Shown: one piece after another, positions 761 to 64,000 of the stretch
How the letters are laid out: the number at the start of each line of letters is the position of its first letter
Numbering within the stretch: the first letter of the stretch is position 1
Assembly (NCBI GenBank): GCA_000002445.1
Contig: CM000207.1
Span: forward strand, 1,632,001-1,696,000
DNA length: 64,000 bases
Reading direction: 5' to 3'
Origin: Trypanosoma brucei
Taxonomy: Eukaryota
The notes under the pieces: generated by a model
Databases searched by the model: none
The model's input: only the letters and a program-made list of their open reading frames with translations
Told to the model about the DNA's origin: nothing
Position numbers and translations under genes: made by a program

Positions 761-1770
761 ACACGACAAACCTCCGCACACCCAAACACTTACTCAGAAG
801 TCAAACAGACAAAATTAACTGATGTCAGCATCAAATAAATTCAGCTGAAACACGGATTTGACAGACTCATCATTGACACAAAACAAGGTAAGAGCAACAC
901 CACCAAACAGTTCAGAGCAGGAATAAGAAGGAGGGCGGCATGTACATATGTGTGTGGGGTAATGTTGGTGTAATGGGGAAAAGGTGAGAAAGTTACCGTA
1001 CGCCTCGGACGCAGGACGCACGCGGCTGGAATGTTGTGCGGCGCCCCAGAAACTATCGTAACACTCGTGCTCAATCCATGTTCGGGTGTGTGTCATAAGA
1101 CCGTCGTAAGTGGTTTATCGTCATGGGCAAAGTACAAGGTGTATCCGCAGTGACCAAAGAGACAATGCAGAATCTGGCAAAGAGAAAGGGCGAAAGCCAA
1201 GCAATAAGGGTGGTTTCAAATGTAAAACAAGGAAAAAGGGAGGGGAGGGGGGTGACAGTAACCACACACATGGTATGATAACGTGCCACGACGAAACCAA
1301 ACACCATCAGCCGGGGAAAGAAGAATATTCTTTAAATGGGTTATTGTCATTCAAATACACTCAGAGACTCCAGTCCATTGATGTCATCAAGTAGCGCGTT
1401 TACGACAGGTTAGGTGTACCGCAAAGCAACTCTCGGAGCGCACCAAGATGGCCTACGGCATGCAATCACAAAACGGCCGCTCCATGGCTAAAGCCCCTTT
1501 TTCATTTTTGTTGTCCATAAAAACACTGAAGGGAGAAAACAGAGGAAGGAGAAGGTAACAATATCAAACAAGAGAAGAGTGTGCACTAACCAATAACCTC
1601 CGTTATAATTCTCGGACCACGTGAGTGTGCAAACAAGGACACAGAAATGTTAGCCCAAGACACAACTCCAATGTGGGCCTTCCCCTACGGTTACTGCCCC
1701 AACACATAATTGTAATTATAATAATAACCATAATCATAATTATACACCTGACGTCAAGTGAAAAAAACTC

Positions 1771-1979: not shown

Positions 1980-3985
1980 AACGACGGATGGGGGATAAAC
2001 ACTTAACAGAGGGGAAAATGTGCATGAAATAGGTAATACAATAAGAGAAGGGGGAAGTAAACAGGGAATCACGGAAGTAAGGTTCAGTGCAGGTCTGTGT
2101 TATGGTGTCCTCACAGGTTCTCGGTGCAATTTGAACATATTGTACATCGTCACCCACTACATTCCCTCTCGACTACCCCGCCACTCACAACATTATACTG
2201 CCGCCCACATTAGCCATTCCAAACTCACTGCGGTAATGTATCCTCGTGTGTGCTTGCGTGTATATGTGTATATATGTGTATGTGTATGGAGTCGCGCCCA
2301 AGTGCCCGAGGTTGAGTACCTGAAGGACACGATAGCCATCAGACCCGAAAGGTGATTTGTGTTGTATAGATCCCTCATGAATATGACGTCGGAACATGTT
2401 TGGACGCTCAACTAGTTTCCATCATCGGCCACACACATACACAAACATACAAGCACACACACACACACACACACTCACATATATATATATATATATACAT
2501 ACACGACAAACCTCCGCACACCCAAACACTTACTCAGAAGTCAAACAGACAAAATTAACTGATGTCAGCATCAAATAAATTCAGCTGAAACACGGATTTG
2601 ACAGACTCATCATTGACACAAAACAAGGTAAGAGCAACACCACCAAACAGTTCAGAGCAGGAATAAGAAGGAGGGCGGCATGTACATATGTGTGTGGGGT
2701 AATGTTGGTGTAATGGGGAAAAGGTGAGAAAGTTACCGTACGCCTCGGACGCAGGACGCACGCGGCTGGAATGTTGTGCGGCGCCCCAGAAACTATCGTA
2801 ACACTCGTGCTCAATCCATGTTCGGGTGTGTGTCATAAGACCGTCGTAAGTGGTTTATCGTCATGGGCAAAGTACAAGGTGTATCCGCAGTGACCAAAGA
2901 GACAATGCAGAATCTGGCAAAGAGAAAGGGCGAAAGCCAAGCAATAAGGGTGGTTTCAAATGTAAAACAAGGAAAAAGGGAGGGGGGGTGACAGCAACCA
3001 CACACATGGTATGATAACGTGCCACGACGAAACCAAACACCATCAGCCGGGGAAAGAAGAATATTCTTTAAATGGGTTATTGTCATTCAAATACACTCAG
3101 AGACTCCAGTCCATTGATGTCATCAAGTAGCGCGTTTACGACAGGTTAGGTGTACCGCAAAGCAACTCTCGGAGCGCACCAAGATGGCCTACGGCATGCA
3201 ATCACAAAACGGCCGCTCCATGGCTAAAGCCCCTTTTTCATTTTTGTTGTCCATAAAAACACTGAAGGGAGAAAACAGAGGAAGGAGAAGGTAACAATAT
3301 CAAACAAGAGAAGAGTGTGCACTAACCAATAACCTCCGTTATAATTCTCGGACCACGTGAGTGTGCAAACAAGGACACAGAAATGTTAGCCCAAGACACA
3401 ACTCCAATGTGTCGCATTTTTTTTCGTAATATAGTTTTTGAAAGTTTATTCAAATTTTTTGGAAGAAGGCTGAGTTGTTGCAGGTTCTTTACCTATGATA
3501 GGTCATATTGCTGATTATATTTTTTGTTCAATTGTTTTTTGTGTATAGAATGATTTCTCCTTTTTTATTTTTTTTCACCAAGTGGCTTGATAATTTTGGT
3601 GGAACCAACTGTTTTTTTTTTTTTCGCATGATATATTGTTAATAAGTTGAAACTCAAAAGTAAATGAGTAGGGTAACCATTATTTTGTGATAACTGCACG
3701 TAGCTTCGCTATAGTTGAAGCATCGATGTGCCCTTTTTCATTACTTTTTTTTTTACGTTTCTTGCATTGTTTAGCAATTGAGTATCGATTTTGTGTCCGC
3801 TTCCGATATTACTTTGGCAGGGTCAGTGATGTGGTTTAACAAAAAGGAAAAAATCAGCTGAATGGTGTTGTTTACTTGTTTGATGCCATTACCACTTGTT
3901 TTTTATTTTCGCTGTTGCATCATATCGCAGCTGTTCTCGCTGCCGTTTGATTATCACTCTCTTGATGTAGTTGGTAGTAACGTTT

Positions 3986-53951: not shown

Positions 53952-54962
53952 CTAAAACCCACGGAACTCCAATTGTTGTGATGGTGCTAACGGGGGCAAC
54001 CGCTTATCCCCACTCTCGGGATACGACTCAAAGTTACTTGTGTCGCCGGGGCTCTTCACTTTTACAGGAATGGGAGCGTGATAATGACGTCCATAGAGTT
54101 TCTCCCAATTCGCACCACGGAAGAATGGGTGATTCTTCACATCAGCTACGCCATCCTTCAGCGTGCCCAACCGTTTCGTGTGATCCGTTTGCAATAAACC
54201 CTTTACGAGATCCCGCGCACGGGAGTCAAACCAATTGGGGAATTTGAACCGGCCCGCAAGAATCTTTTCATACGTCCGAATTGGGGTTTCATCAAAAAAG
54301 GGAGGATGGCCAGCTATGAATTCATACAGCAAAACACCCATCGTCCACCAATCCACAGCCTTCCCATGTCCTTTGCTCTGAATTACCTCAGGTGCAAGAT
54401 ACTCAGGTGTCCCACATAACGTATAGGTACGATCCGTCACCTTCTTAGCAAAACCAAAATCAGTCACCTTGACGTGTCCCTTCCCATCAAGTAGCAGATT
54501 CTCAGGTTTCAAGTCACGGTAGATAATGTCCTTCGAGTGTAAATATTCAAAGGCCAACACAAGCTCCGCATGATAGAACTTCGCTACGTCATTCGGGAAA
54601 CGGCCTGCGGAACGAAGGTGAGTAAATACCTCACCACCTACCACAAATTCTAGAACAAAGTAGACGCGGTTCTCATCCTGGAAGGAACACATCATGTTCA
54701 CAATGAAGGGGTGTGACAACTCCATTAGAATTTGCTTCTCTTGGTTCAGGTGTTGTACCTGCTTCATCTTTAGTATCTCACGCTTCTTTAGACATTTTAT
54801 TGCATAATACTCCCCCCTGCTCTTCAGTTTTGCAATGCGCACGCGACCAAACGAGCCGGTCCCTAGCGTGTCACCCATTTCAAAGTCACTCAGCTTCCAT
54901 CCCGATGTGTCAGGTTTGGTAAACACATACGTTTGCGGTTCCGTCGACGTGGCTACAGGCAT
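53952..54962 (-). CDS. PKAC: cAMP-dependent protein kinase catalytic subunit (AGC kinase, PKAC), 336 aa
   Basis: GTGSFGRV, AIK, HRDLKPENLLLD, DFGFAK, GTPEYLAPE and a C-terminal hydrophobic-motif tail. The track ORF is extended at the N-terminus by pyrimidine-tract translation; the kinase-like sequence begins at the ATG at 54960-54962 (MPVATSTEP...). Confidence 0.9.
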   Translation of the reverse strand: MPVATSTEPQTYVFTKPDTSGWKLSDFEMGDTLGTGSFGRVRIAKLKSRGEYYAIKCLKKREILKMKQVQHLNQEKQILMELSHPFIVNMMCSFQDENRVYFVLEFVVGGEVFTHLRSAGRFPNDVAKFYHAELVLAFEYLHSKDIIYRDLKPENLLLDGKGHVKVTDFGFAKKVTDRTYTLCGTPEYLAPEVIQSKGHGKAVDWWTMGVLLYEFIAGHPPFFDETPIRTYEKILAGRFKFPNWFDSRARDLVKGLLQTDHTKRLGTLKDGVADVKNHPFFRGANWEKLYGRHYHAPIPVKVKSPGDTSNFESYPESGDKRLPPLAPSQQLEFRGF

Positions 54963-55316: not shown

Positions 55317-56240
55317 TTACGCCATATTACCTTTAAGATAGCTGTAGAACCCCATTGTTAAAGCAGCGTTGGGCGCAGCAAATGTCACTCTGATCGGTAA
55401 GCCCTTCCACAGCGCACATACACCCTCGCTCTTAACAATAGCACACAATCCATCTAATAACCCCTTGTAACGGAAAGGAAATCCGTAAACGGCAGTTGGC
55501 TTTCCATTGACGGAGAGAACTGCCCGCTGTACCTGCAAGCGTGTCTTCACTAATTCCAGAGGGTTTGTTACGACGCAGGCGACAATATTCCCCATACCTC
55601 CTGCACAGAGTGAAGAAGAAAATGTTCCTAATGACATGTGCTCGTTGAGAACATTCTCAAAAACTTCGTAGCAACCAAAGTATACTGCCGAGTAGGGTCC
55701 GAAGGATGCCAATGTTGACCAATAACCCTTATATAAACCTCGCACACCTTCGTAGCGAGCGACAGTGCGGATGGCGTCCCAGTTGCCTTTGTATCGCCCT
55801 TCTACAAACGACGACTGCGCCTGCAGCCGTTCCTTCGTTACGTCAATAGGAACCCAAAAGATACAACTGACCGACTCGGCAAAGAGTCCACAAATAAGAT
55901 GAATAAATGAAGAAGGTATGGTGCTAAGAAAGGAAGAGGAATGGCTTGCACTCACATATCCCTGAAGGAAATCTCGAGACCACGTGTATGTTGTTAGATA
56001 CAGTGCAGTTCCCGGTGCAGAGCCAACAATCGCTACGCCCGCACCACGGTAGAAGGCACCTGGCCCTTCACGCCTCCAAATAGAACTCGCGACATGCCGC
56101 AGTGATCCCTTCGAATTTACATGAAGGGAACTGCTGCTATCTCCAAAGAAACCCGTGAAGGTCACAGTTTTAGCCGTATCGAGAGGATGACAAACCGCTC
56201 GGGCCATCACGCCAGCAAGAGCGGAGCATATTACATCCAT
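55317..56240 (-). CDS. Mitochondrial carrier family (SLC25) protein, 307 aa
   Basis: Three tandem carrier repeats with Px[DE]xx[KR] signatures (PLDTAKT, PIDVTKERLQ, PLELVKTRLQ) and six predicted TM helices. ATG at 56238-56240. Confidence 0.85.
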   Translation of the reverse strand: MDVICSALAGVMARAVCHPLDTAKTVTFTGFFGDSSSSLHVNSKGSLRHVASSIWRREGPGAFYRGAGVAIVGSAPGTALYLTTYTWSRDFLQGYVSASHSSSFLSTIPSSFIHLICGLFAESVSCIFWVPIDVTKERLQAQSSFVEGRYKGNWDAIRTVARYEGVRGLYKGYWSTLASFGPYSAVYFGCYEVFENVLNEHMSLGTFSSSLCAGGMGNIVACVVTNPLELVKTRLQVQRAVLSVNGKPTAVYGFPFRYKGLLDGLCAIVKSEGVCALWKGLPIRVTFAAPNAALTMGFYSYLKGNMA

Positions 56241-59200
56241 ACTTGTGGCCTCTCCTAATGTGCCCTATTGCCTTGTAGTTTCCTCTCTTCCTTCCTTCTT
56301 TCTATTTGCGAGATGTCTGAAAAGGGGGACAAAAAACAAAGAAAAATTTAAAAAATTATGAAAGAGGCAATAAAAATAATAACAACACTAGTAATAGTAA
56401 CAACGATAGTAATAATAGCAACAATGATTATATAAGGGACAGAGGACCGCCAACACTCACTTATTACTGCCTCCCACAAACAACTAAGCGGATGGAACGA
56501 AGAAGAAGAAGAGTTAACCCATCGAATGACAGATGAGAGACAAAATTGTCCACCCCTTTGTACGCAGAAGAGAGTGCGGGCACTTGATGAAATAAATGAA
56601 AAATAACAAGAAATGAAGGACAACAATTCACCCATCCATCCCGACTTGAGGCCCTCAATTTATTTAACCCACCGCCGTTGAGTTCATAAATATAGGGATA
56701 CCCGGTAAAAAGAAGTAAAACGGAAGCAAGAAGGGGAAACCCTCCCTTTCATTCCTTCCTTCTTGTTTCTTGTTAGTCCTATTCCCTTTTTTTTCTTTTA
56801 TTTTTTTTTAATTTTCCTTTACATTGTGCTGAATTGAATTAGGAAGAAGGAAAGGGAAGGGAAAGGAAGGGGAAGGAAGAACATAAATTGTTGTGGCACT
56901 TTAAGCCACTCTGTTTAGTTTGCAGCCCCAACATCCTCTGTCCCTTTGTAAACTCCCCACTACGCACAAACACAGAATCAACTCGACACCAACAACAAAA
57001 CACTCAAAAAAAAAATACAAAAAAAAGGCAAGACCAGCGCCCCCGAGTGCCTCACCCCCTTTTGCGTGTGTTTGCGTGTGCGTTTTTTTTTTCTTTTTTG
57101 TTTTTCCCGTTTCTCTTTCTTTTTTTTTTCCTGTGTGTGTGTGTGTGTTTCTTTTTTTGCTGTTTTTTTTTTTTTGGCTCCCCCTCCCTCTCCCCAGAAG
57201 AAAAAAGAAGAAGAAGATGTTGACTCATCACATCGATTAATTCGGCGTTTTACCCTCCTTTACTACCTTTTTCACTTTGGATATCGCCCCAACTGAAATC
57301 AATTCTCTCAACGGAGAGAAAAACAAAAACAAAAAAACAAAAAAATTCCCTACCGCACGCACGCCTTTCCTCCGCTTTACCGCGGTCGCAAAGTTACACA
57401 AAACACAACAAATGGAACAAAACAAAAAAAAAGTAACCGCCTCCTCATATATCCCTTAAGAAGAAGTACGAAGGCATGAAGTGAATAGTTGGGAAGGAGG
57501 GGAGGGGAAATAGAGTGAGAAAAAGTAAAATGAAAAAAAAAATTAAGAAAGCTAAGACCAATGGAAAAGCAGTAACAAAAAGAAAGAAAAAAGAAGAGAG
57601 AAAGAAAAAAAAGAGAAAAAAAAGAGAGAGAGAAGGCTCCCAACCCCTTCTAAATGCCGGCCGGTGCAAATGCACATGAAAAAGAAAAAGAAAGTCATAA
57701 TGAACAGTTGCAGTTGAATGAGCAGCGCCAAGAAAATGAATGAAGTAAATGCATCACACGCGCACAAATATATAAATTAATTAATATATGTTCAAATAGC
57801 AGCATGCCTCACAATTGCCTTCGGAGCCGCCTTCAGGAAAAGGGGGAGAATGGAAGAAAAAGAAATTAAAAACAAAGGCGGGGAAAACAATCAAATAAAA
57901 TAGAAGAAAAAAAAAGAAGAAGTGATATTGTAACAACATGGAGAGAGAAGATAAGAGAAGATTTAAAAAAAGAAAAAGAAAAGAGGGATAAAAAAGAAGA
58001 GGAAAAAACTGAAGACGGAGAGACGAAAGAGAATTTTTTTTAAAAAAACAAACAAACAAACAAACAAAACTGAAATCAATAGAGAAAAAGACCCGCAACG
58101 CGTATAAAAAAGAAAAAGAAAAAGAAACTTTGATGGATGCAAATGCTATCAGCGCGGGGTGCGAATGTAGCGATGACTACTCATTGTCGTGGCGGACAGC
58201 ATCGCAACCTCTGCTGCTTCAGTTTGTTTGACTAATAGAAGAAAAGATGAAAAGATAGATTTTTTTTTAAAAAAAAAGAAACACTGCGGTGAAAAAGAAG
58301 TCATTAATATAGAGGCAATCACATCTCCACCTTCCGATCCTTAGGTTTCTGTTCACACACACACACACACATGCGCCCCAAAATTGAAATAACAGTTTGG
58401 ACGAAGGGGATGTGAAACATAATGAAAAAAAAAAAAGAAACGTACAAAAAACGTATAATTTTCTGCGGGATCACAATATTACGTTCTTTCAGTCTTTTGT
58501 CTTTTTTCTTCTAGCTCAGCTATTATTTTTTTCTTCCTTAAAAACTCTCTTTCTTCCTTTTTTTTTAATTCCTGATGCTTAATGCTTCTTTATTTATGTA
58601 TCTGTCACGTATCTGTCTCTTGATATTTATAAATTCTTTAGCATTTGAAAGCATTTGTTAGGAGCCCATCGTCCACATTGGCAACATCCCGCGCCATCCT
58701 TCACGCAGCAAACTGACAGATATATAAATAAATACAAGTAAATAAATAAACGCATATGTAAATATAAATATTGATATGTATCCGCCAGCACTATTTAGTA
58801 ACCGTGTCTGTGTTCATGCTACCAACAATAAACGCCCGTACACACGCCTCAACATCATTCCGCCAAGGCGATGAAAAGAAAAACAATAATAAAAGTAGAA
58901 TTGGAAGGAAAAAAAACAAACAAACAAACAAACAAACAAAAAGAAAGAAAGAACAGACAGAAAGGTAAAAGGTAAAAGAAGAGCAGCACAACGTTCTATC
59001 CGAGTAACGCCAACTTGTACATTTATGTACCTCCCATTGGTATCACTCAACAGCGACCATCGCGCATGGAAAAGGGGAGAAAGTAGTGAAGGAATGAGAG
59101 AGATTTCTTTTTTAAAAAAAAAAAGGAAGGGGAAAAGAACGAACTGCTAGTAAAATACCCCGCAGTGTAGCAGCAACGAAATCAGATCTGAAACAAACTA

Positions 59201-59759
59201 AAAGAGGCATACGTGAAAAAGAAAAAGTAACTCGTTGCATAAACGAATCGTTCGTCCTGCTCCCCTCACCGCAATTTTTCTCGCAAAAAAAAAAAAAAAA
59301 GTTGAATCCCACGCGTATTTTTTTTTAATTGTATAACTCTATAAAGGTAGATACAGTTATAAATGGGTAGTTGCTTTCTTTTCCTCTTTTTTGCTTTCTC
59401 TTCCTCATCCTTCCCCACACACCACGTCCCTCTCCCCACATCTCCTGTTTTAAACTTGAATGAGCGACTACGGTGTTATCACATGAAACAAGCAGCTCCT
59501 CATTATTAACGATAGCGCTGACAGAAAATATTTAAAACGAACATGAGGCCGCTACTCCCTCAAGTTACAAAAAAAAAATCAAAAACTCACCTTTAAATAG
59601 CGAGTTATAAAGACCCAGCCACCAAAGCATACGTGTGCACGCAAACCTGTGTGCAACAGACCCCCTCACTGACAGGATTTACCTGTTGAATGGTTCAAAC
59701 CCACAGCCACCGATTTGCCATAGAATCTCAAAGTTTTCTCCATCTCTCCATTTTGCAAG

Positions 59760-61397
59760 CTAGCGGCGCTGGTTGGGCTGCTTCGCCTGCTGCTGTTGTG
59801 CGAAAAGCACTTGTGTGCCGGGAGGAAAACCTGTGGCACCCACAGTGTATGGTGCCGTACCATCCGCGGGGCGGTAAAACATCATCGGTTGCTGAGCCTG
59901 ACTAGGCACAAAACCTGCAACATAATGGCCGGGCATGGCCGGCTGCGCGTAATACGGTGCTCCTTGAGCGCCACTCACAATTATTGGAACGGGTTGAGGG
60001 ACGCCAGTTTGACGGTGCTGCGGCTGCGGTGGAGCTTGCACCAGTTTTTGCATTTGTTGTGGTGCAACCTTCTGAACGGGAACCCCCCACGGCATTTGGA
60101 CAGGCTGTTGCTGCGGCCGTTGTTGCTGTGGGACATGTGCAGGTAGTTGGGTTGTCGACATTTGTGGCGGCGTCATATGGCCGGAAACCGAAAGTAACGG
60201 TGGGGCCCCTGTGACGGGTACAGCACTTCCTGGCATTTGAGACATGACCGCTGCCTGCGGCTGAGTCTGTGGGCGACCCAAACTTTGCTTCACCTGCATG
60301 AGTAACTGCTGCTCCAGGGCTGTTGCCTCAATAGGTTTACTTTCCACCTCCGGTTGCCTGCTCACCTTCTGCTCGCTAATGAGTCTCTGCTCCAAATCGT
60401 GAGCGTTCCACGTGCGGGGTTGGTTTGACGCCGATGTCTCGGTGGGTTGTGTAGCTGGCGCACGGGCACTCGTAGCAGCACCCGCTTCCACCGAAGGCGC
60501 TGCGGGTACCGAGTGCAAAACTGCTGGTTGCATCGATGGCTGTGTTGGCACCGCGCCCGCATGCTGGGTCGGTGCTGTCGACGGAACACCTAAGGACAGA
60601 CTACCGGTCAAAAGTGAATTCATACCTACATTGGCGGAAGGATTCTTACGTTCAAGCGCCGCATCAACGCCGGTGGGCTTCGAAGCTTCCACATTGTTCC
60701 ACACAACGTTACCGCTCGCTGGGACCATGGACGGCAAGGCCCACGGGTCTTTGACCTGATTCAAAGAGGCACTTGTCAGGGGTTCTGATATTGCCTGCAC
60801 CAGAGGAGCAGAGGTAGGGTTTGTATCCTGGAAACCAGAGTTTGCCCCAGAGAAGAAGCGTGACTTGGCTACTTTCTTCCCCCCCTCACCACTTGGTGCT
60901 ATGCTAACCATCAACCGTTCTATCTCATCGTCAACCTCTGCCTTTACTTCAGTTCTGGAGGGGGAAGAGGGACCCCATTTGTTGGTGTCGTTTTTGCCCT
61001 CATCCTTTGAAGAGGCTGCAGCGTCACTCCTTTGCTTCTCCCTCTCCATGGTTTCCTGCAGTGCCTGCTTCTTAATGGCATTCCGCTCCAACTCATACTT
61101 GTACCCCTCTTCGAATGCTTCCTGATCCCTGCTTCCCCTCCAAGAACGGGATGGGGGAGCAAAGCGTTCGCTGTTTGTTGCCCGCTTCGATGCTGGCCCA
61201 AGCGCTCCATTTTTCGAGTCGGATGACTTTTGACCGGTGGCGTCGTGGCGGGTTCCATCCGGCGAAGAGGACTGCACGGGGCACTCCGTTTCGATTATGC
61301 TGAATTTCTGTAGTACCTCCTCGCTCAAGGTGAATTCTTCTGGTCTCGGTGCAAGTGAGAGAAGTTCAGGGCGAGTGTATCGAATTGTAGTTCTCAT
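59760..61397 (-). CDS. 4E-IP: Gln/Pro-rich protein with N-terminal Y-x4-L-phi eIF4E-binding motif; candidate 4E-interacting protein (4E-IP), 545 aa
   Basis: The N-terminus MRTTIRYTRPELLSLAP contains YTRPELL, fitting the YxxxxL-phi eIF4E-binding consensus. The rest is a low-complexity Q/P/A-rich tail. The track start is a TTG; the first ATG is at 61395-61397. Assignment is by motif and remembered synteny. Confidence 0.6.
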   Translation of the reverse strand: MRTTIRYTRPELLSLAPRPEEFTLSEEVLQKFSIIETECPVQSSSPDGTRHDATGQKSSDSKNGALGPASKRATNSERFAPPSRSWRGSRDQEAFEEGYKYELERNAIKKQALQETMEREKQRSDAAASSKDEGKNDTNKWGPSSPSRTEVKAEVDDEIERLMVSIAPSGEGGKKVAKSRFFSGANSGFQDTNPTSAPLVQAISEPLTSASLNQVKDPWALPSMVPASGNVVWNNVEASKPTGVDAALERKNPSANVGMNSLLTGSLSLGVPSTAPTQHAGAVPTQPSMQPAVLHSVPAAPSVEAGAATSARAPATQPTETSASNQPRTWNAHDLEQRLISEQKVSRQPEVESKPIEATALEQQLLMQVKQSLGRPQTQPQAAVMSQMPGSAVPVTGAPPLLSVSGHMTPPQMSTTQLPAHVPQQQRPQQQPVQMPWGVPVQKVAPQQMQKLVQAPPQPQHRQTGVPQPVPIIVSGAQGAPYYAQPAMPGHYVAGFVPSQAQQPMMFYRPADGTAPYTVGATGFPPGTQVLFAQQQQAKQPNQRR

Positions 61398-62811
61398 TGT
61401 CAACCCTACCTTGATTCGATCACTAGTTAGTTCTCTGTTAATTTCTTTTTTCTTTTTTTTTCCTTTTTTGGAGGGGCAATTCTTTTTCCTTTTTGTTTGC
61501 CTAAACCCGTTCCCCTATATCGCTATTCAGATACAATGTTATACCACTTCTCTGGGTTTATCACACTGCTATTATTAGTAACAGAAATAGGTTCTTCTTA
61601 TTCCTTTCACCCGAAAAAGATAAATAATCAACCCAGAGGACGTCCCTGATCCTGTCGTGTGGGTCGCCGCTGATCCTACTTTTTTTTTCTTCTTTCACAA
61701 AAATTCCCCTTCACCTGATTTTTTTTAATATTTCACCTTTTTGTCGGTGATTGATTGTTTTTTTTTAATTTTTGTTGTCTTGTTGTTGTTGTTGTTGTTT
61801 TTTTTTTTTGCTTAATTTCTTTTTTCTCTTTCAATTTAACTTTTTTTTCCTTTTCTTTTTGTTTCTATCTTTTTAACAGTAAAAATAATGATTTAACAGG
61901 AGAGCGAAAATTATCTTTCCTTCTTTTCGTGGAAAGTTCGGGTCAAAGTAAGTTTCGTTCAGTTAGGCGATCAGACAATCGCTTGGCGGTATACTTTAAA
62001 AAAAAAACGTTTGCGTTGAGGAACTGAGTCCAGTAAGAACACACATAAATACAAAGAACAAGTTAATGAAGAAAGAAAATGGAAGATGAAAGTGCAAATA
62101 TGAATGTAAAGATGGTGTGCGAACAGCAACAAAATGGTGGAAACGAAAAAAGAAAAGAAAAAGAAATGTGGGGTGATAGTGTATATACAAATGGAAACAT
62201 ATCAGGAAGGGGGAAAAAATTGCGACAATAGTAGTAAGAGTATTGGCGCCCAGATGACACACCCGACCACATACTTATTGATTACTCCGCTGGTACCGCA
62301 AACGCACAGACGCGCACCAGTGTATGTTTTATTACGCGCAAGGTTTCCTTTTGACATCCTCTTTTTTTACGACCGCACCACCACACACGGGTCGCATGGT
62401 AACAGTTAATACCCAATAATCGGCACTGCACTCGCGGTAACTCTTGAAAAGAGGCGGGCCGCGGCACGGCCGCAAGGTGCGTATTTAACGCGGTAGTAAA
62501 AAGGGGGAGAAAAGGGAGAAAAGCAACAGAACGATGTGCCTCACGTGCAACTCGCTGCCTAAGCGGGAGAGAGAAGCGTTCCCGGAAACACGATACTGGA
62601 GCAGCCTCCTCCAGGTTGGAAAGGAGAAAAGATTCAGTAAATAAACAAGAAGCGCAATAGAGAAATGAAAGATAGATAGATAGAAAGGGTATGTTAAATT
62701 TCATTTCTATATACTTTGCCGCATATCCAGTGATTCACTCCATTCTCTTCTTTCACTTCATCGCCATTACCGTCCCTGCACAACCGCAACCACAACTACA
62801 ACCACACCACA

Positions 62812-64000
62812 TTACAACACAATGGGATGATCCGCCGTCCCCAACCGCAAACCTCTGCCAACATCACCATCCTGCGACGCCCTACTTCCATAGTCTCCAA
62901 CGTTACCCCCCACCCTCCCTCGTCTGTAAACAACAAACGCCTCCCCGTCATCGGACGAGTCGGCGCCAAGTTCCGCCAAACCAAAAAAGGAATCGCTGGA
63001 CCCGCCGCATGCAACTACAGGCTTGAGTGGTTTATTTACATCATTGCTGCTCTCGTCGTCATCGTCAAGAACGACATCTACAACACCACTAACACTCTTC
63101 TTAGGTACCCACCGAAATGGAACATAGTCTTCATCCGTTTCCGCTGTGCTTGCCGTGTGAACTGCAGCTTTTGCCTCCCTGTCGTTCCTGACAAGTTGAA
63201 GGTACGCGGGGCATTTCTCACCTGCTTGTTGCAAGCACCGCAGCAACACGGTGTCAACGCGGATGTCACGGGGTGCAAGCGGTGAGTCACAAAGTGGGCA
63301 GTTCCAGTAACATCCACTGTGACAACCCTGAAGAAAGGAGCGACAGTCAAAGCATTGAAGGTGAGCACAATGGGCACCACGGATTGGAATGCTAATGCGT
63401 GCTTGAGAAATGGGACACTTCGTTGTGATGACGGGGTTGTCCACTACCATCTCATCTTTTGACATTTCCTCGTCCTCTAACACGCTACGGTACATGGCGT
63501 ACAAACTAGCATCGCGCATATTCTGCGGGTTGCATAACGGCGTAACGATACTATTCATCACCTCATCTTGTGGTACCAACTGAACTACCAACAATGCCAC
63601 CTGACTAACGTACTCCTTTGAGGTCACAACAAATCCAAGCTCCTGAGTGTGGCAATTTCTATTCAAAAATTGTGTTATATCCAAAGGAAGAAGGGTTTTG
63701 GTTACTTCCTTCCGCCGCTCGGGCCACCGCCGCCTCCACATTGTCATGACCGCTTGGCCGTTCACTGTTACCGCAATTTCCTTTATTACCGGCCACGACA
63801 TGGGAATAAATGGCGGCCGGAAGGGTACCACGTGCAGACGAAGCCGTCTTGACGCCACTCCCTCCAAATACTGCTGAGGAACTTCAAAAGAGTGATTGGC
63901 GCTACCAAAACACAGCTGCGTTTTCATTACTACGTGTAGCACACGGTGGAAAGGGGAACTGACTTCGTTTATGGCTTCAACGGGAAGGTTGTCGTCAAGC
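62812..64000 (-). CDS. SIZ1: SP-RING (MIZ-type zinc finger) SUMO E3 ligase, PIAS/Siz-like; 5' end runs off the window
   Basis: CPISQARISIPIRGAHCAHLQCFDCRSFLQGCHSGCYWNCPLCD matches the SP-RING consensus (compare PIAS [44 protein letters not shown]). The reading frame stays open from 63942 to position 64000; the track's M at 63942 is a GTG. Confidence 0.7.
   Translation of the reverse strand, partial: LDDNLPVEAINEVSSPFHRVLHVVMKTQLCFGSANHSFEVPQQYLEGVASRRLRLHVVPFRPPFIPMSWPVIKEIAVTVNGQAVMTMWRRRWPERRKEVTKTLLPLDITQFLNRNCHTQELGFVVTSKEYVSQVALLVVQLVPQDEVMNSIVTPLCNPQNMRDASLYAMYRSVLEDEEMSKDEMVVDNPVITTKCPISQARISIPIRGAHCAHLQCFDCRSFLQGCHSGCYWNCPLCDSPLAPRDIRVDTVLLRCLQQAGEKCPAYLQLVRNDREAKAAVHTASTAETDEDYVPFRWVPKKSVSGVVDVVLDDDDESSNDVNKPLKPVVACGGSSDSFFGLAELGADSSDDGEAFVVYRRGRVGGNVGDYGSRASQDGDVGRGLRLGTADHPIVL

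What the first reader, a model, noticed from the sequence alone, without database searches (positions are those of the whole stretch)
61340..61397. N-terminal YTRPELL eIF4E-binding motif in a Q/P-rich protein (candidate 4E-IP)
Residues 7-13 of the ATG-initiated protein (MRTTIRYTRPELLSLAP) fit the Y-x4-L-phi motif that 4E-BPs, eIF4G and kinetoplastid 4E-interacting proteins use to bind cap-binding protein. The rest of the protein is a long intrinsically disordered Q/P/A-rich region, and it sits next to a PKA catalytic-subunit gene. The true start is the ATG at 61395-61397, not the TTG reported by the ORF track, which places the motif at the extreme N-terminus.
Basis: partly seen in the sequence, partly recalled or inferred. 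Interest (0 to 1): 0.5.

Follow-up and report, generated by a model that had tools for sequence, protein, structure and literature searches.

The report
Known trypanosome 4EIP cap-factor partner

Summary
The ORF 59760-61397 (minus strand) starts at the ATG at 61395-61397 and encodes 545 aa. YTRPELL occupies residues 7-13 (nt 61379-61359). The protein is identical, residue for residue, to T. brucei brucei TREU927 XP_827381.1 / UniProt Q38DR9, '4E-interacting protein'. Its C-terminal composition reproduces the figures Terrao et al. 2018 give for 4EIP, Tb927.9.11050. That paper shows by yeast two-hybrid and co-immunoprecipitation that deleting the first 13 residues abolishes EIF4E1 binding. The motif is kept in all seven Trypanosoma-type relatives retrieved, in Porcisia and in Angomonas. 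A profile of the N-terminus finds a single PDB chain, the Leishmania 4E-IP1 fragment crystallised on LeishIF4E-1 (5WB5_B). Three corrections apply. The PKA catalytic gene (PKAC2) is two genes away, not adjacent. The protein is not uniformly Q/P-rich, because it has a conserved charged helix (about residues 90-132) and two further conserved helices. Published data place the repressor activity in the C-terminal domain, independent of the motif. Interest is low.

The parts
59760..61397 (-). Complete 4EIP coding sequence: 545 codons plus the stop at 59760-59762. This is T. brucei 4E-interacting protein, Tb927.9.11050.
   Evidence: ORF. The translation is an exact match to XP_827381.1 / EAN77051.1 / UniProt Q38DR9 and is 99% identical to the DAL972 protein.
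61395..61397 (-). True ATG start codon
   Evidence: First in-frame ATG after the stop at 61517. No ATG in any frame on the coding strand from 62045 to 61398. The product length equals the deposited 545-aa protein.
61359..61379 (-). YTRPELL, residues 7-13: the canonical Y-x4-L-phi eIF4E-binding motif
   Evidence: Invariant Y7, T8, R9, E11, L12 in the Trypanosoma alignment. Aligns with YTREELL of Leishmania 4E-IP1 in PDB 5WB5_B. Predicted helix 9-15. Deleting residues 1-13 abolishes EIF4E1 binding (PMC6158607).
61290..61328 (-). Residues 24-36 (LSEEVLQKFSIIE): second, non-canonical EIF4E1-contact helix
   Evidence: V28, L29, F32, I34 and I35 align with Leishmania V29, L30, F33, V35 and I36, which contact LeishIF4E-1 in the crystal (alignments; contact residues from PMC5909430). 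Predicted helix 26-31. K31, F32, I35 and E36 are invariant.
61002..61166 (-). Residues 78-132: the most conserved block of the protein (RFAPPSR..RDQEAFEEGYKYELERNAIKKQALQETME), a charged long helix. Its function is not established.
   Evidence: Run of invariant columns 78-120. AF2 helix 90-132 with block pLDDT 81-93. This block drives the profile hits to distant kinetoplastid relatives. It is the 'second, highly charged, conserved region' of PMC6158607.
60279..60410 (-). Residues 330-373: two conserved short helices (WNAHDLEQRLIS... and ALEQQLLMQVKQ)
   Evidence: Invariant W330, N331, A332, L335, E336, Q337 and L361, E362, Q364, L365, Q368, V369. AF2 helices 332-347 and 358-373 with block pLDDT 74-79.
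59763..60311 (-). Last 183 residues: Q/P-rich, basic, disordered C-terminal domain. This is the published repressor domain.
   Evidence: Q 20.8%, P 16.9%, pI 10.76 computed here. The paper gives 21%, 17% and 10.8. The C-terminal 150 residues suffice for repression when tethered (PMC6158607).
61398..62219 (-). Upstream non-coding region: 648 nt free of ATG, preceded by polypyrimidine tracts (62219-62068). These tracts are the likely trans-splicing signal (inferred).
   Evidence: The splice acceptor was not mapped here.

Best explanation
This is the Trypanosoma brucei gene for 4EIP (4E-interacting protein, Tb927.9.11050), on chromosome 9.

How it works:
- The extreme N-terminus carries a canonical Y-x4-L-phi helix (YTRPELL, residues 7-13), a short linker and a second hydrophobic helix (about residues 24-36).
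- Together these clamp the dorsal and lateral surfaces of the cap-binding paralogue EIF4E1, which binds no EIF4G.
- The rest of the protein is largely disordered and ends in a basic Q/P-rich domain.
- When brought to an mRNA, that domain blocks translation initiation and destabilises the mRNA.
- The EIF4E1-4EIP pair is thus a repressive cap-binding complex, functionally analogous to 4EHP-GIGYF2 or eIF4E-Cup/4E-T.
- 4EIP is needed for translational shutdown during stumpy-form differentiation.

Shown here: the identity of the protein, the motif, its conservation, homology of the N-terminus to the crystallised Leishmania fragment, and the disorder and helix layout.

Taken from the literature: physical binding, its dependence on residues 1-13, and the repression and differentiation phenotypes.
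For: 1. Identity. Exact-sequence look-up gives XP_827381.1 / Q38DR9, '4E-interacting protein', T. brucei brucei TREU927. The best database hit is 99% identical over 100% of the query.

2. Link to the published gene. The Q, P and pI values of the last 183 aa equal those printed for Tb927.9.11050. The window's gene order is PKA-C, mitochondrial carrier, this gene, SP-RING. This fits PKAC2 = Tb927.9.11030 and SIZ1 = Tb927.9.11070. The same order is seen on T. b. gambiense chromosome 9, FN554972.1. Hits to snoRNA TB9Cs2H1 also fit T. brucei.

3. Motif conservation. Y-T-R-[PA]-E-L-[LI] is present in all 7 database sequences aligned with the window protein. Related forms are YTREELL in Porcisia, YSNADLL in Angomonas, and YSKNELL, YSREQLL, YLRDELL, YSKDELL and YTKEDLL in other relatives.

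4. Structural homology. A profile of residues 1-187 (the A2 alignment) finds only PDB 5WB5 chain B, Leish4E-IP1 1-52 bound to LeishIF4E-1, at E = 3.4e-6. All five helix-2 contact residues are conserved as hydrophobics.

5. Layout. AF2 predicts helices 9-15 and 26-31, a confident helix at 90-132, and disorder elsewhere.

6. Experiments in PMC6158607. 4EIP binds EIF4E1 in two-hybrid assays and in vivo. The deletion of residues 1-13 does not bind. Tethered 4EIP represses without the motif. The C-terminal 150 aa suffice for repression. 4EIP knock-out cells fail in stumpy translation arrest. PMC8608314 adds that EIF4E1 binds no EIF4G and that 4EIP recruits TUT3.
Against: Nothing found here contradicts the identification.

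Caveats on mechanism:
- Published data show the motif is dispensable for repression by tethered 4EIP and for complementation of the differentiation defect. The biological role of the EIF4E1 contact itself is therefore still incompletely defined.
- The downstream effector (NOT complex, TUT3) is unresolved.
- Salivarian trypanosomes have Pro at motif position +3 (YTRPELL), where other species have Ala or Glu. This is unusual inside a helix, but binding was nevertheless demonstrated.
- The T. brucei experiment was a 13-residue deletion, not Y/L point mutations.
Confidence: 0.97

Rival explanations
1. The YTRPELL match is a chance occurrence in a disordered, low-complexity protein and has nothing to do with eIF4E.
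For: The bare pattern is weak. It appears in 8% of shuffles of this protein. It also occurs at three internal positions in unrelated ORFs of the same window. Pfam finds no domain in the protein.
Against: The N-terminal placement has P of about 0.003 in shuffles. The motif residues are invariant across Trypanosoma and kept in Porcisia and Angomonas. The N-terminal profile hits the crystallised eIF4E-bound Leishmania peptide at E = 3.4e-6. Published deletion of residues 1-13 abolishes EIF4E1 binding.
Confidence: 0.01
2. The protein is an eIF4G-like scaffold that uses the motif to build an active eIF4F-type initiation complex, and so is an activator rather than a repressor.
For: eIF4G uses the same Y-x4-L-phi motif. 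In Leishmania it has been proposed that EIF4E1 may act in initiation in amastigotes (PMC6158607 introduction; PMC8608314 abstract).
Against: There is no MIF4G/HEAT or any other Pfam domain. The model is mostly disordered. In T. brucei, 4EIP and EIF4E1 are strong repressors when tethered. EIF4E1 shows no association with other initiation factors even without 4EIP.
Confidence: 0.01
3. It is the paralogous second 4E-interacting protein (4E-IP2 type) rather than 4EIP / 4E-IP1.
For: Kinetoplastids have a second 4E-interacting protein with a similar motif (Leish4E-IP2; title and abstract of PMC7192595).
Against: The sequence is exactly the protein named 4E-interacting protein, Q38DR9. Its composition matches Tb927.9.11050. 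The only PDB match is the 4E-IP1 fragment. The chromosome-9 gene order fits Tb927.9.11030 to Tb927.9.11070. I did not align it to a 4E-IP2 sequence.
Confidence: 0.01

Closest known systems
Trypanosoma brucei 4EIP (Tb927.9.11050; UniProt Q38DR9; Terrao et al. 2018, Falk et al. 2021)
   Same: Identical sequence: same length, motif, C-terminal composition and genomic neighbours.
   Different: Nothing. It is this gene.
Leishmania Leish4E-IP1 (LmjF.35.3980; PDB 5WB5 chain B with LeishIF4E-1)
   Same: It has an N-terminal Y-x4-L-phi helix (YTREELL against YTRPELL), a linker and a second hydrophobic helix, with all five contact residues conserved. It shares the conserved charged block and the Q/P-rich C-terminus; this was tested on the closely related Porcisia protein, 'hypothetical protein' in NCBI and '4E-interacting protein' in UniRef, at E = 1.7e-27.
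   Different: The Leishmania protein is larger: 83 kDa against 58.5 kDa here. The linker salt-bridge residue D24 corresponds to T23 here. Motif position +3 is Glu in Leishmania and Pro here. Stage-specific binding (promastigote only) is reported for Leishmania.
Metazoan 4E-BP1-3
   Same: They use the same canonical Y-x4-L-phi helix on the dorsal surface of eIF4E, and they compete with eIF4G-type binding (established knowledge; introduction of PMC6158607).
   Different: There is no sequence homology: no Pfam hit of any kind, including the eIF4E-BP family. This protein is about five times longer. It carries its own repressor domain that acts independently of eIF4E. It lacks the proline-turn linker with regulatory phospho-sites noted for 4E-BP1.
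Drosophila Cup / 4E-T, and the 4EHP-GIGYF2 repressive cap complexes
   Same: These are large, mostly disordered eIF4E partners with a canonical and a non-canonical helix. Helix 2 of the Leishmania protein most resembles that of Cup. They repress when tethered even without the motif. They pair with an eIF4E that does not recruit eIF4G.
   Different: There is no detectable sequence relationship. The effector pathway in trypanosomes is unresolved: NOT-complex contact is weak and TUT3 is not essential.

Membership tests
Kinetoplastid 4EIP / 4E-IP1 | Y-x4-L-phi motif within the first ~15 residues | tested here: met
   YTRPELL at residues 7-13. It is conserved in the alignment.
Kinetoplastid 4EIP / 4E-IP1 | Second EIF4E1-contacting helix with conserved hydrophobic residues | tested here: met
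   V28, L29, F32, I34 and I35 align to Leishmania V29, L30, F33, V35 and I36. Predicted helix 26-31.
Kinetoplastid 4EIP / 4E-IP1 | Conserved highly charged block after a disordered linker | tested here: met
   Invariant run at 78-120. The profile recovers the Porcisia protein named '4E-interacting protein' in UniRef at E = 1.7e-27 through this block.
Kinetoplastid 4EIP / 4E-IP1 | Basic Q/P-rich C-terminus | tested here: met
   Last 183 aa: Q 20.8%, P 16.9%, pI 10.76, equal to the published values.
Kinetoplastid 4EIP / 4E-IP1 | Sequence identity with the named T. brucei protein | tested here: met
   Exact match to XP_827381.1 / Q38DR9.
Kinetoplastid 4EIP / 4E-IP1 | Physical, motif-dependent binding to EIF4E1 | not testable with these tools
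   Published for this same protein: two-hybrid assay and co-IP, both lost on deleting residues 1-13 (PMC6158607).
Metazoan 4E-BP (Pfam eIF_4EBP) | Homology to the ~120-aa 4E-BP family | tested here: not met
   No Pfam family matched at E up to 1. Only the short linear motif is shared.
eIF4G | MIF4G/HEAT domain that binds eIF4A | tested here: not met
   No Pfam hit. No folded domain appears in the AF2 model.

The most novel reading that the evidence does not exclude
The conserved placement of 4EIP between the two PKA catalytic-subunit genes might reflect a functional link, with 4EIP acting downstream of the cAMP-independent, nucleoside-activated trypanosome PKA. PKAC2 lies two genes downstream in the window. 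A second kinase gene lies beyond SIZ1 on T. b. gambiense chromosome 9. Two published results point the same way: 7-deaza-nucleosides activate TbPKA (PMC6440977), and 4EIP knock-down gives about 3-fold resistance to a 7-deaza-nucleoside analogue (PMC8069773). A smaller variant of this idea is that the salivarian-specific Pro10 in the motif tunes EIF4E1 affinity. Neither idea was tested here. Gene order in polycistronic trypanosome units usually carries no functional meaning.
Probability: 0.04. Interest if true: 0.4.

Novelty: already known. Interest (0 to 1): 0.07.

Why it matters
It matters little as a discovery. It shows that a tool-less read of raw sequence can correctly recover a short linear motif and the right start codon, and can infer the right function. 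However, the gene, its motif, its partner EIF4E1 and its phenotypes were published between 2011 and 2021. 4EIP itself is biologically important: it is a repressive cap-complex factor required for stumpy-form translational arrest and differentiation, and its loss modifies nucleoside-analogue sensitivity. Nothing in the window adds to that.

Tried and rejected
- Pfam scan of the protein found no family, so domain annotation could not help.
- A single-sequence PDB search gave only a borderline hit to 5WB5_B (E = 0.037). The interferon-gamma and spike matches at E of about 1 or more are noise. A profile of the N-terminal residues 1-187 of seven orthologues made the 5WB5_B hit significant and unique.
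- The AlphaFold model has mean pLDDT 43.9 and pTM 0.21. It was used only for helix and disorder layout. No fold search was run, because a low-confidence model gives meaningless matches.
- Exact-product contig look-up for the TREU927 sequence found nothing on record. The 99%-identical DAL972 protein gave the chromosome-9 context instead.
- The word-indexed homologue search reached only Trypanosoma. The exhaustive profile search was needed to reach leishmaniine and other kinetoplastid relatives.
- I considered and rejected three alternatives: a chance motif, an eIF4G-like scaffold, and the 4E-IP2 paralogue (see rival explanations).
- I did not map the trans-splice site. Only polypyrimidine tracts and the ATG-free leader were noted.

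Full report
**Observation**

On the minus strand the window reads ...ttg aca ATG AGA ACT ACA ATT CGA TAC ACT CGC CCT GAA CTT CTC..., which translates to MRTTIRYTRPELLSLAP. The ORF tool lists 59760-61403 with a TTG start only because it applies the bacterial start rule. The ATG at 61397-61395 is the first in-frame ATG after the stop at 61517. The coding strand has no ATG in any frame for 648 nt upstream (62045-61398). That stretch is preceded by long polypyrimidine tracts at 62219-62068, the usual trypanosome trans-splicing signal (the splice site itself is inferred). The motif YTRPELL is at residues 7-13, nt 61379-61359.

**Is it more than chance?**

The bare pattern Y-x4-L-[LMFIVW] is not strong evidence by itself.
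- It appears in 8% of composition-preserving shuffles of this protein, and in 0.3% within the first 20 residues.
- It occurs three more times, at internal positions, in the other 21 ATG-initiated ORFs of at least 180 aa on the window's minus strand.

Conservation gives it weight. In the alignment of the window protein with seven database sequences (T. b. gambiense, T. congolense, T. grayi, T. conorhini, T. rangeli, T. cruzi and one unnamed assembly), Y7, T8, R9, E11 and L12 are invariant, and position 13 is L or I.

**Identity**

- An exact-sequence look-up places the 545-aa product in a cluster with XP_827381.1 / EAN77051.1 / UniProt Q38DR9, '4E-interacting protein', Trypanosoma brucei brucei TREU927. 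It is that very sequence.
- The window also carries two copies of the trypanosomatid snoRNA TB9Cs2H1.
- All large ORFs lie on one strand, as in a trypanosome polycistronic unit.
- Terrao et al. 2018 (PMC6158607) call T. brucei 4EIP Tb927.9.11050. They state that its last 183 residues have 21% Gln, 17% Pro and pI 10.8. I compute 20.8%, 16.9% and 10.76 for the window protein.
- The neighbours fit the locus numbering. A PKA-catalytic-like kinase lies at 53952-54962 (best PDB matches are PKA C-alpha, E about 1e-115). PKAC2 is Tb927.9.11030 (PMC6440977).
- A mitochondrial-carrier gene lies at 55317-56240.
- An SP-RING/zf-MIZ gene starts at 62812 and runs towards the window end. TbSIZ1 is Tb927.9.11070 (PMC4256477).
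- The same order is called on T. b. gambiense chromosome 9, FN554972.1: kinase..., zf-MIZ, a small ORF, 4EIP, a small ORF, carrier, kinase.

**Anatomy**

Pfam finds nothing in the protein. An AlphaFold2 model built on the eight-sequence alignment is mostly disordered: mean pLDDT is 43.9, and 390 of 545 residues are below 50. It does predict the following:
- short helices at 9-15 and 26-31;
- a confident long helix at 90-132 (block pLDDT 81-93);
- helices at 332-347 and 358-373.

These coincide with the conserved blocks of the alignment:
- the motif;
- LxxxxLQKFxxIE;
- RFAPPxRxxRGxxDQEAFEEGYKYELExNAxKKQxLQETM;
- KSRFFSG;
- WNAxxLEQ and ALExQLxxQV.

The C-terminal third is Q/P-rich and basic.

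**Relation to the solved complex**

The full-length protein hits PDB 5WB5 chain B weakly (E = 0.037). A profile of residues 1-187 from seven orthologues (alignment A2) hits that chain alone at E = 3.4e-6. 5WB5 is Leishmania major LeishIF4E-1 bound to Leish4E-IP1 residues 1-52. In it the Y(X)4L-phi helix, a linker and a second helix wrap the cap-binding protein. Helix-2 residues V29, L30, F33, V35 and I36 contact LeishIF4E-1 (PMC5909430). In the HMMER alignment these correspond to V28, L29, F32, I34 and I35 of the window protein, all hydrophobic. Linker residue D24, a salt bridge in Leishmania, corresponds to T23.

**Wider conservation**

An exhaustive profile search of 1.84 billion representatives found 16 proteins at E up to 1e-3.
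- Most keep the motif at the N-terminus: Porcisia hertigi, 'hypothetical protein' in NCBI and '4E-interacting protein' in UniRef (YTREELL), Angomonas deanei (YSNADLL) and several unnamed assemblies (YTREELL, YSKNELL, YSREQLL, YLRDELL, YSKDELL, YTKEDLL).
- Four unnamed distant relatives deviate. Three have K or E at the phi position (YTKKDLK, YKKGDLE, YAKEDLE) and one has F for Y (FSQSALL).
- One relative is N-terminally truncated.

It does show that the phi position is not universal in the deepest relatives.

**Mechanism**

What follows comes from the literature on this same protein; none of it was tested here.
- T. brucei 4EIP binds EIF4E1 in yeast two-hybrid assays and in reciprocal pull-downs in bloodstream and procyclic forms. 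4EIP lacking its first 13 residues does not bind.
- EIF4E1 binds no EIF4G.
- Both proteins repress a tethered reporter. EIF4E1 needs 4EIP to do so. 4EIP needs neither EIF4E1 nor the motif, and its C-terminal 150 residues suffice.
- 4EIP associates with unstable mRNAs. It is required for translation arrest during stumpy formation and for differentiation to procyclic forms. A truncated 4EIP that cannot bind EIF4E1 still complements the differentiation defect.
- 4EIP stabilises EIF4E1 and recruits TUT3, which is not essential for repression.
- In Leishmania, the N-terminal fragment lowers the cap affinity of LeishIF4E-1.

The best-supported picture is a repressive cap-binding pair. The motif docks 4EIP on EIF4E1, and the disordered basic C-terminus carries the effector function. 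The downstream effector remains unresolved.

**Comparison and membership**

The protein works like Cup/4E-T or 4EHP-GIGYF2 partners. These are large, disordered, bipartite eIF4E binders that repress independently of the motif when tethered. It shares only the linear motif with metazoan 4E-BPs and eIF4G. It is not a member of either family: it has no eIF_4EBP or MIF4G match. It is a member of the kinetoplastid 4EIP / 4E-IP1 family, and indeed is that family's T. brucei founding example. Every sequence-level defining feature was met.

**Verdict**

The corrections are these: PKAC2 is two genes and about 4.8 kb away, not adjacent, and the protein has conserved helical blocks besides the Q/P-rich tail. 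Interest is low.

Noticed in passing
window 1610-1679 (-) and 3346-3415 (-): Two copies of the trypanosomatid H/ACA snoRNA TB9Cs2H1 (Rfam RF01554; 86.8 and 70.5 bits) lie about 1.7 kb apart. This suggests a tandemly repeated snoRNA cluster at the start of the window.
   Followed up: no
window 56241-59759: A 3.5-kb AT-rich stretch (GC 0.32-0.41) without credible ORFs lies between the 4EIP stop codon and the next gene, the mitochondrial carrier. It is probably an unusually long 4EIP 3'UTR. The T. b. gambiense annotation calls a 145-aa hypothetical gene in the equivalent gap.
   Followed up: partly
window 61398-62219 (-): The 648 nt upstream of the start codon contain no ATG in any frame on the coding strand and are purine/A-rich. 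Polypyrimidine tracts lie at 62219-62068. A 140-aa ORF at 62282-62704 (-) matches in length a 'hypothetical' gene called in DAL972, and its low-complexity sequence suggests it may be spurious.
   Followed up: partly
proteins P0012, P0017, P0019, P0020 (distant relatives): Four distant 4EIP-like proteins from unnamed sequencing-run assemblies have a non-canonical motif: YTKKDLK, YKKGDLE and YAKEDLE (charged residue at phi), and FSQSALL (Phe for Tyr). All keep a hydrophobic residue (L or I) at position +8 or +9. Their taxa are unknown, as is whether they still bind an eIF4E.
   Followed up: no
protein P0021/P0026: A 759-aa 4EIP relative with YLRDELL is filed under the ciliate Platyophrya macrostoma in MMETSP/EukProt. 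The family is otherwise kinetoplastid, so this is probably a kinetoplastid contaminant in that transcriptome.
   Followed up: no
window 53952-54962 (-) and L001 1-697 (T. b. gambiense chr 9): 4EIP sits between two protein-kinase genes. PKAC2 lies downstream. A second kinase gene lies beyond SIZ1 and is presumably PKAC1, Tb927.9.11100. Literature coincidence: 7-deaza-nucleosides activate TbPKA (PMC6440977), and 4EIP knock-down gives about 3-fold resistance to a 7-deaza-nucleoside analogue (PMC8069773).
   Followed up: no
window 61368-61370 (-), residue P10: T. brucei and T. congolense have Pro at motif position +3 (YTRPELL). The other Trypanosoma species in the alignment have Ala, and Leishmania/Porcisia have Glu. 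The Pro falls in the first turn of the predicted helix 9-15.
   Followed up: partly
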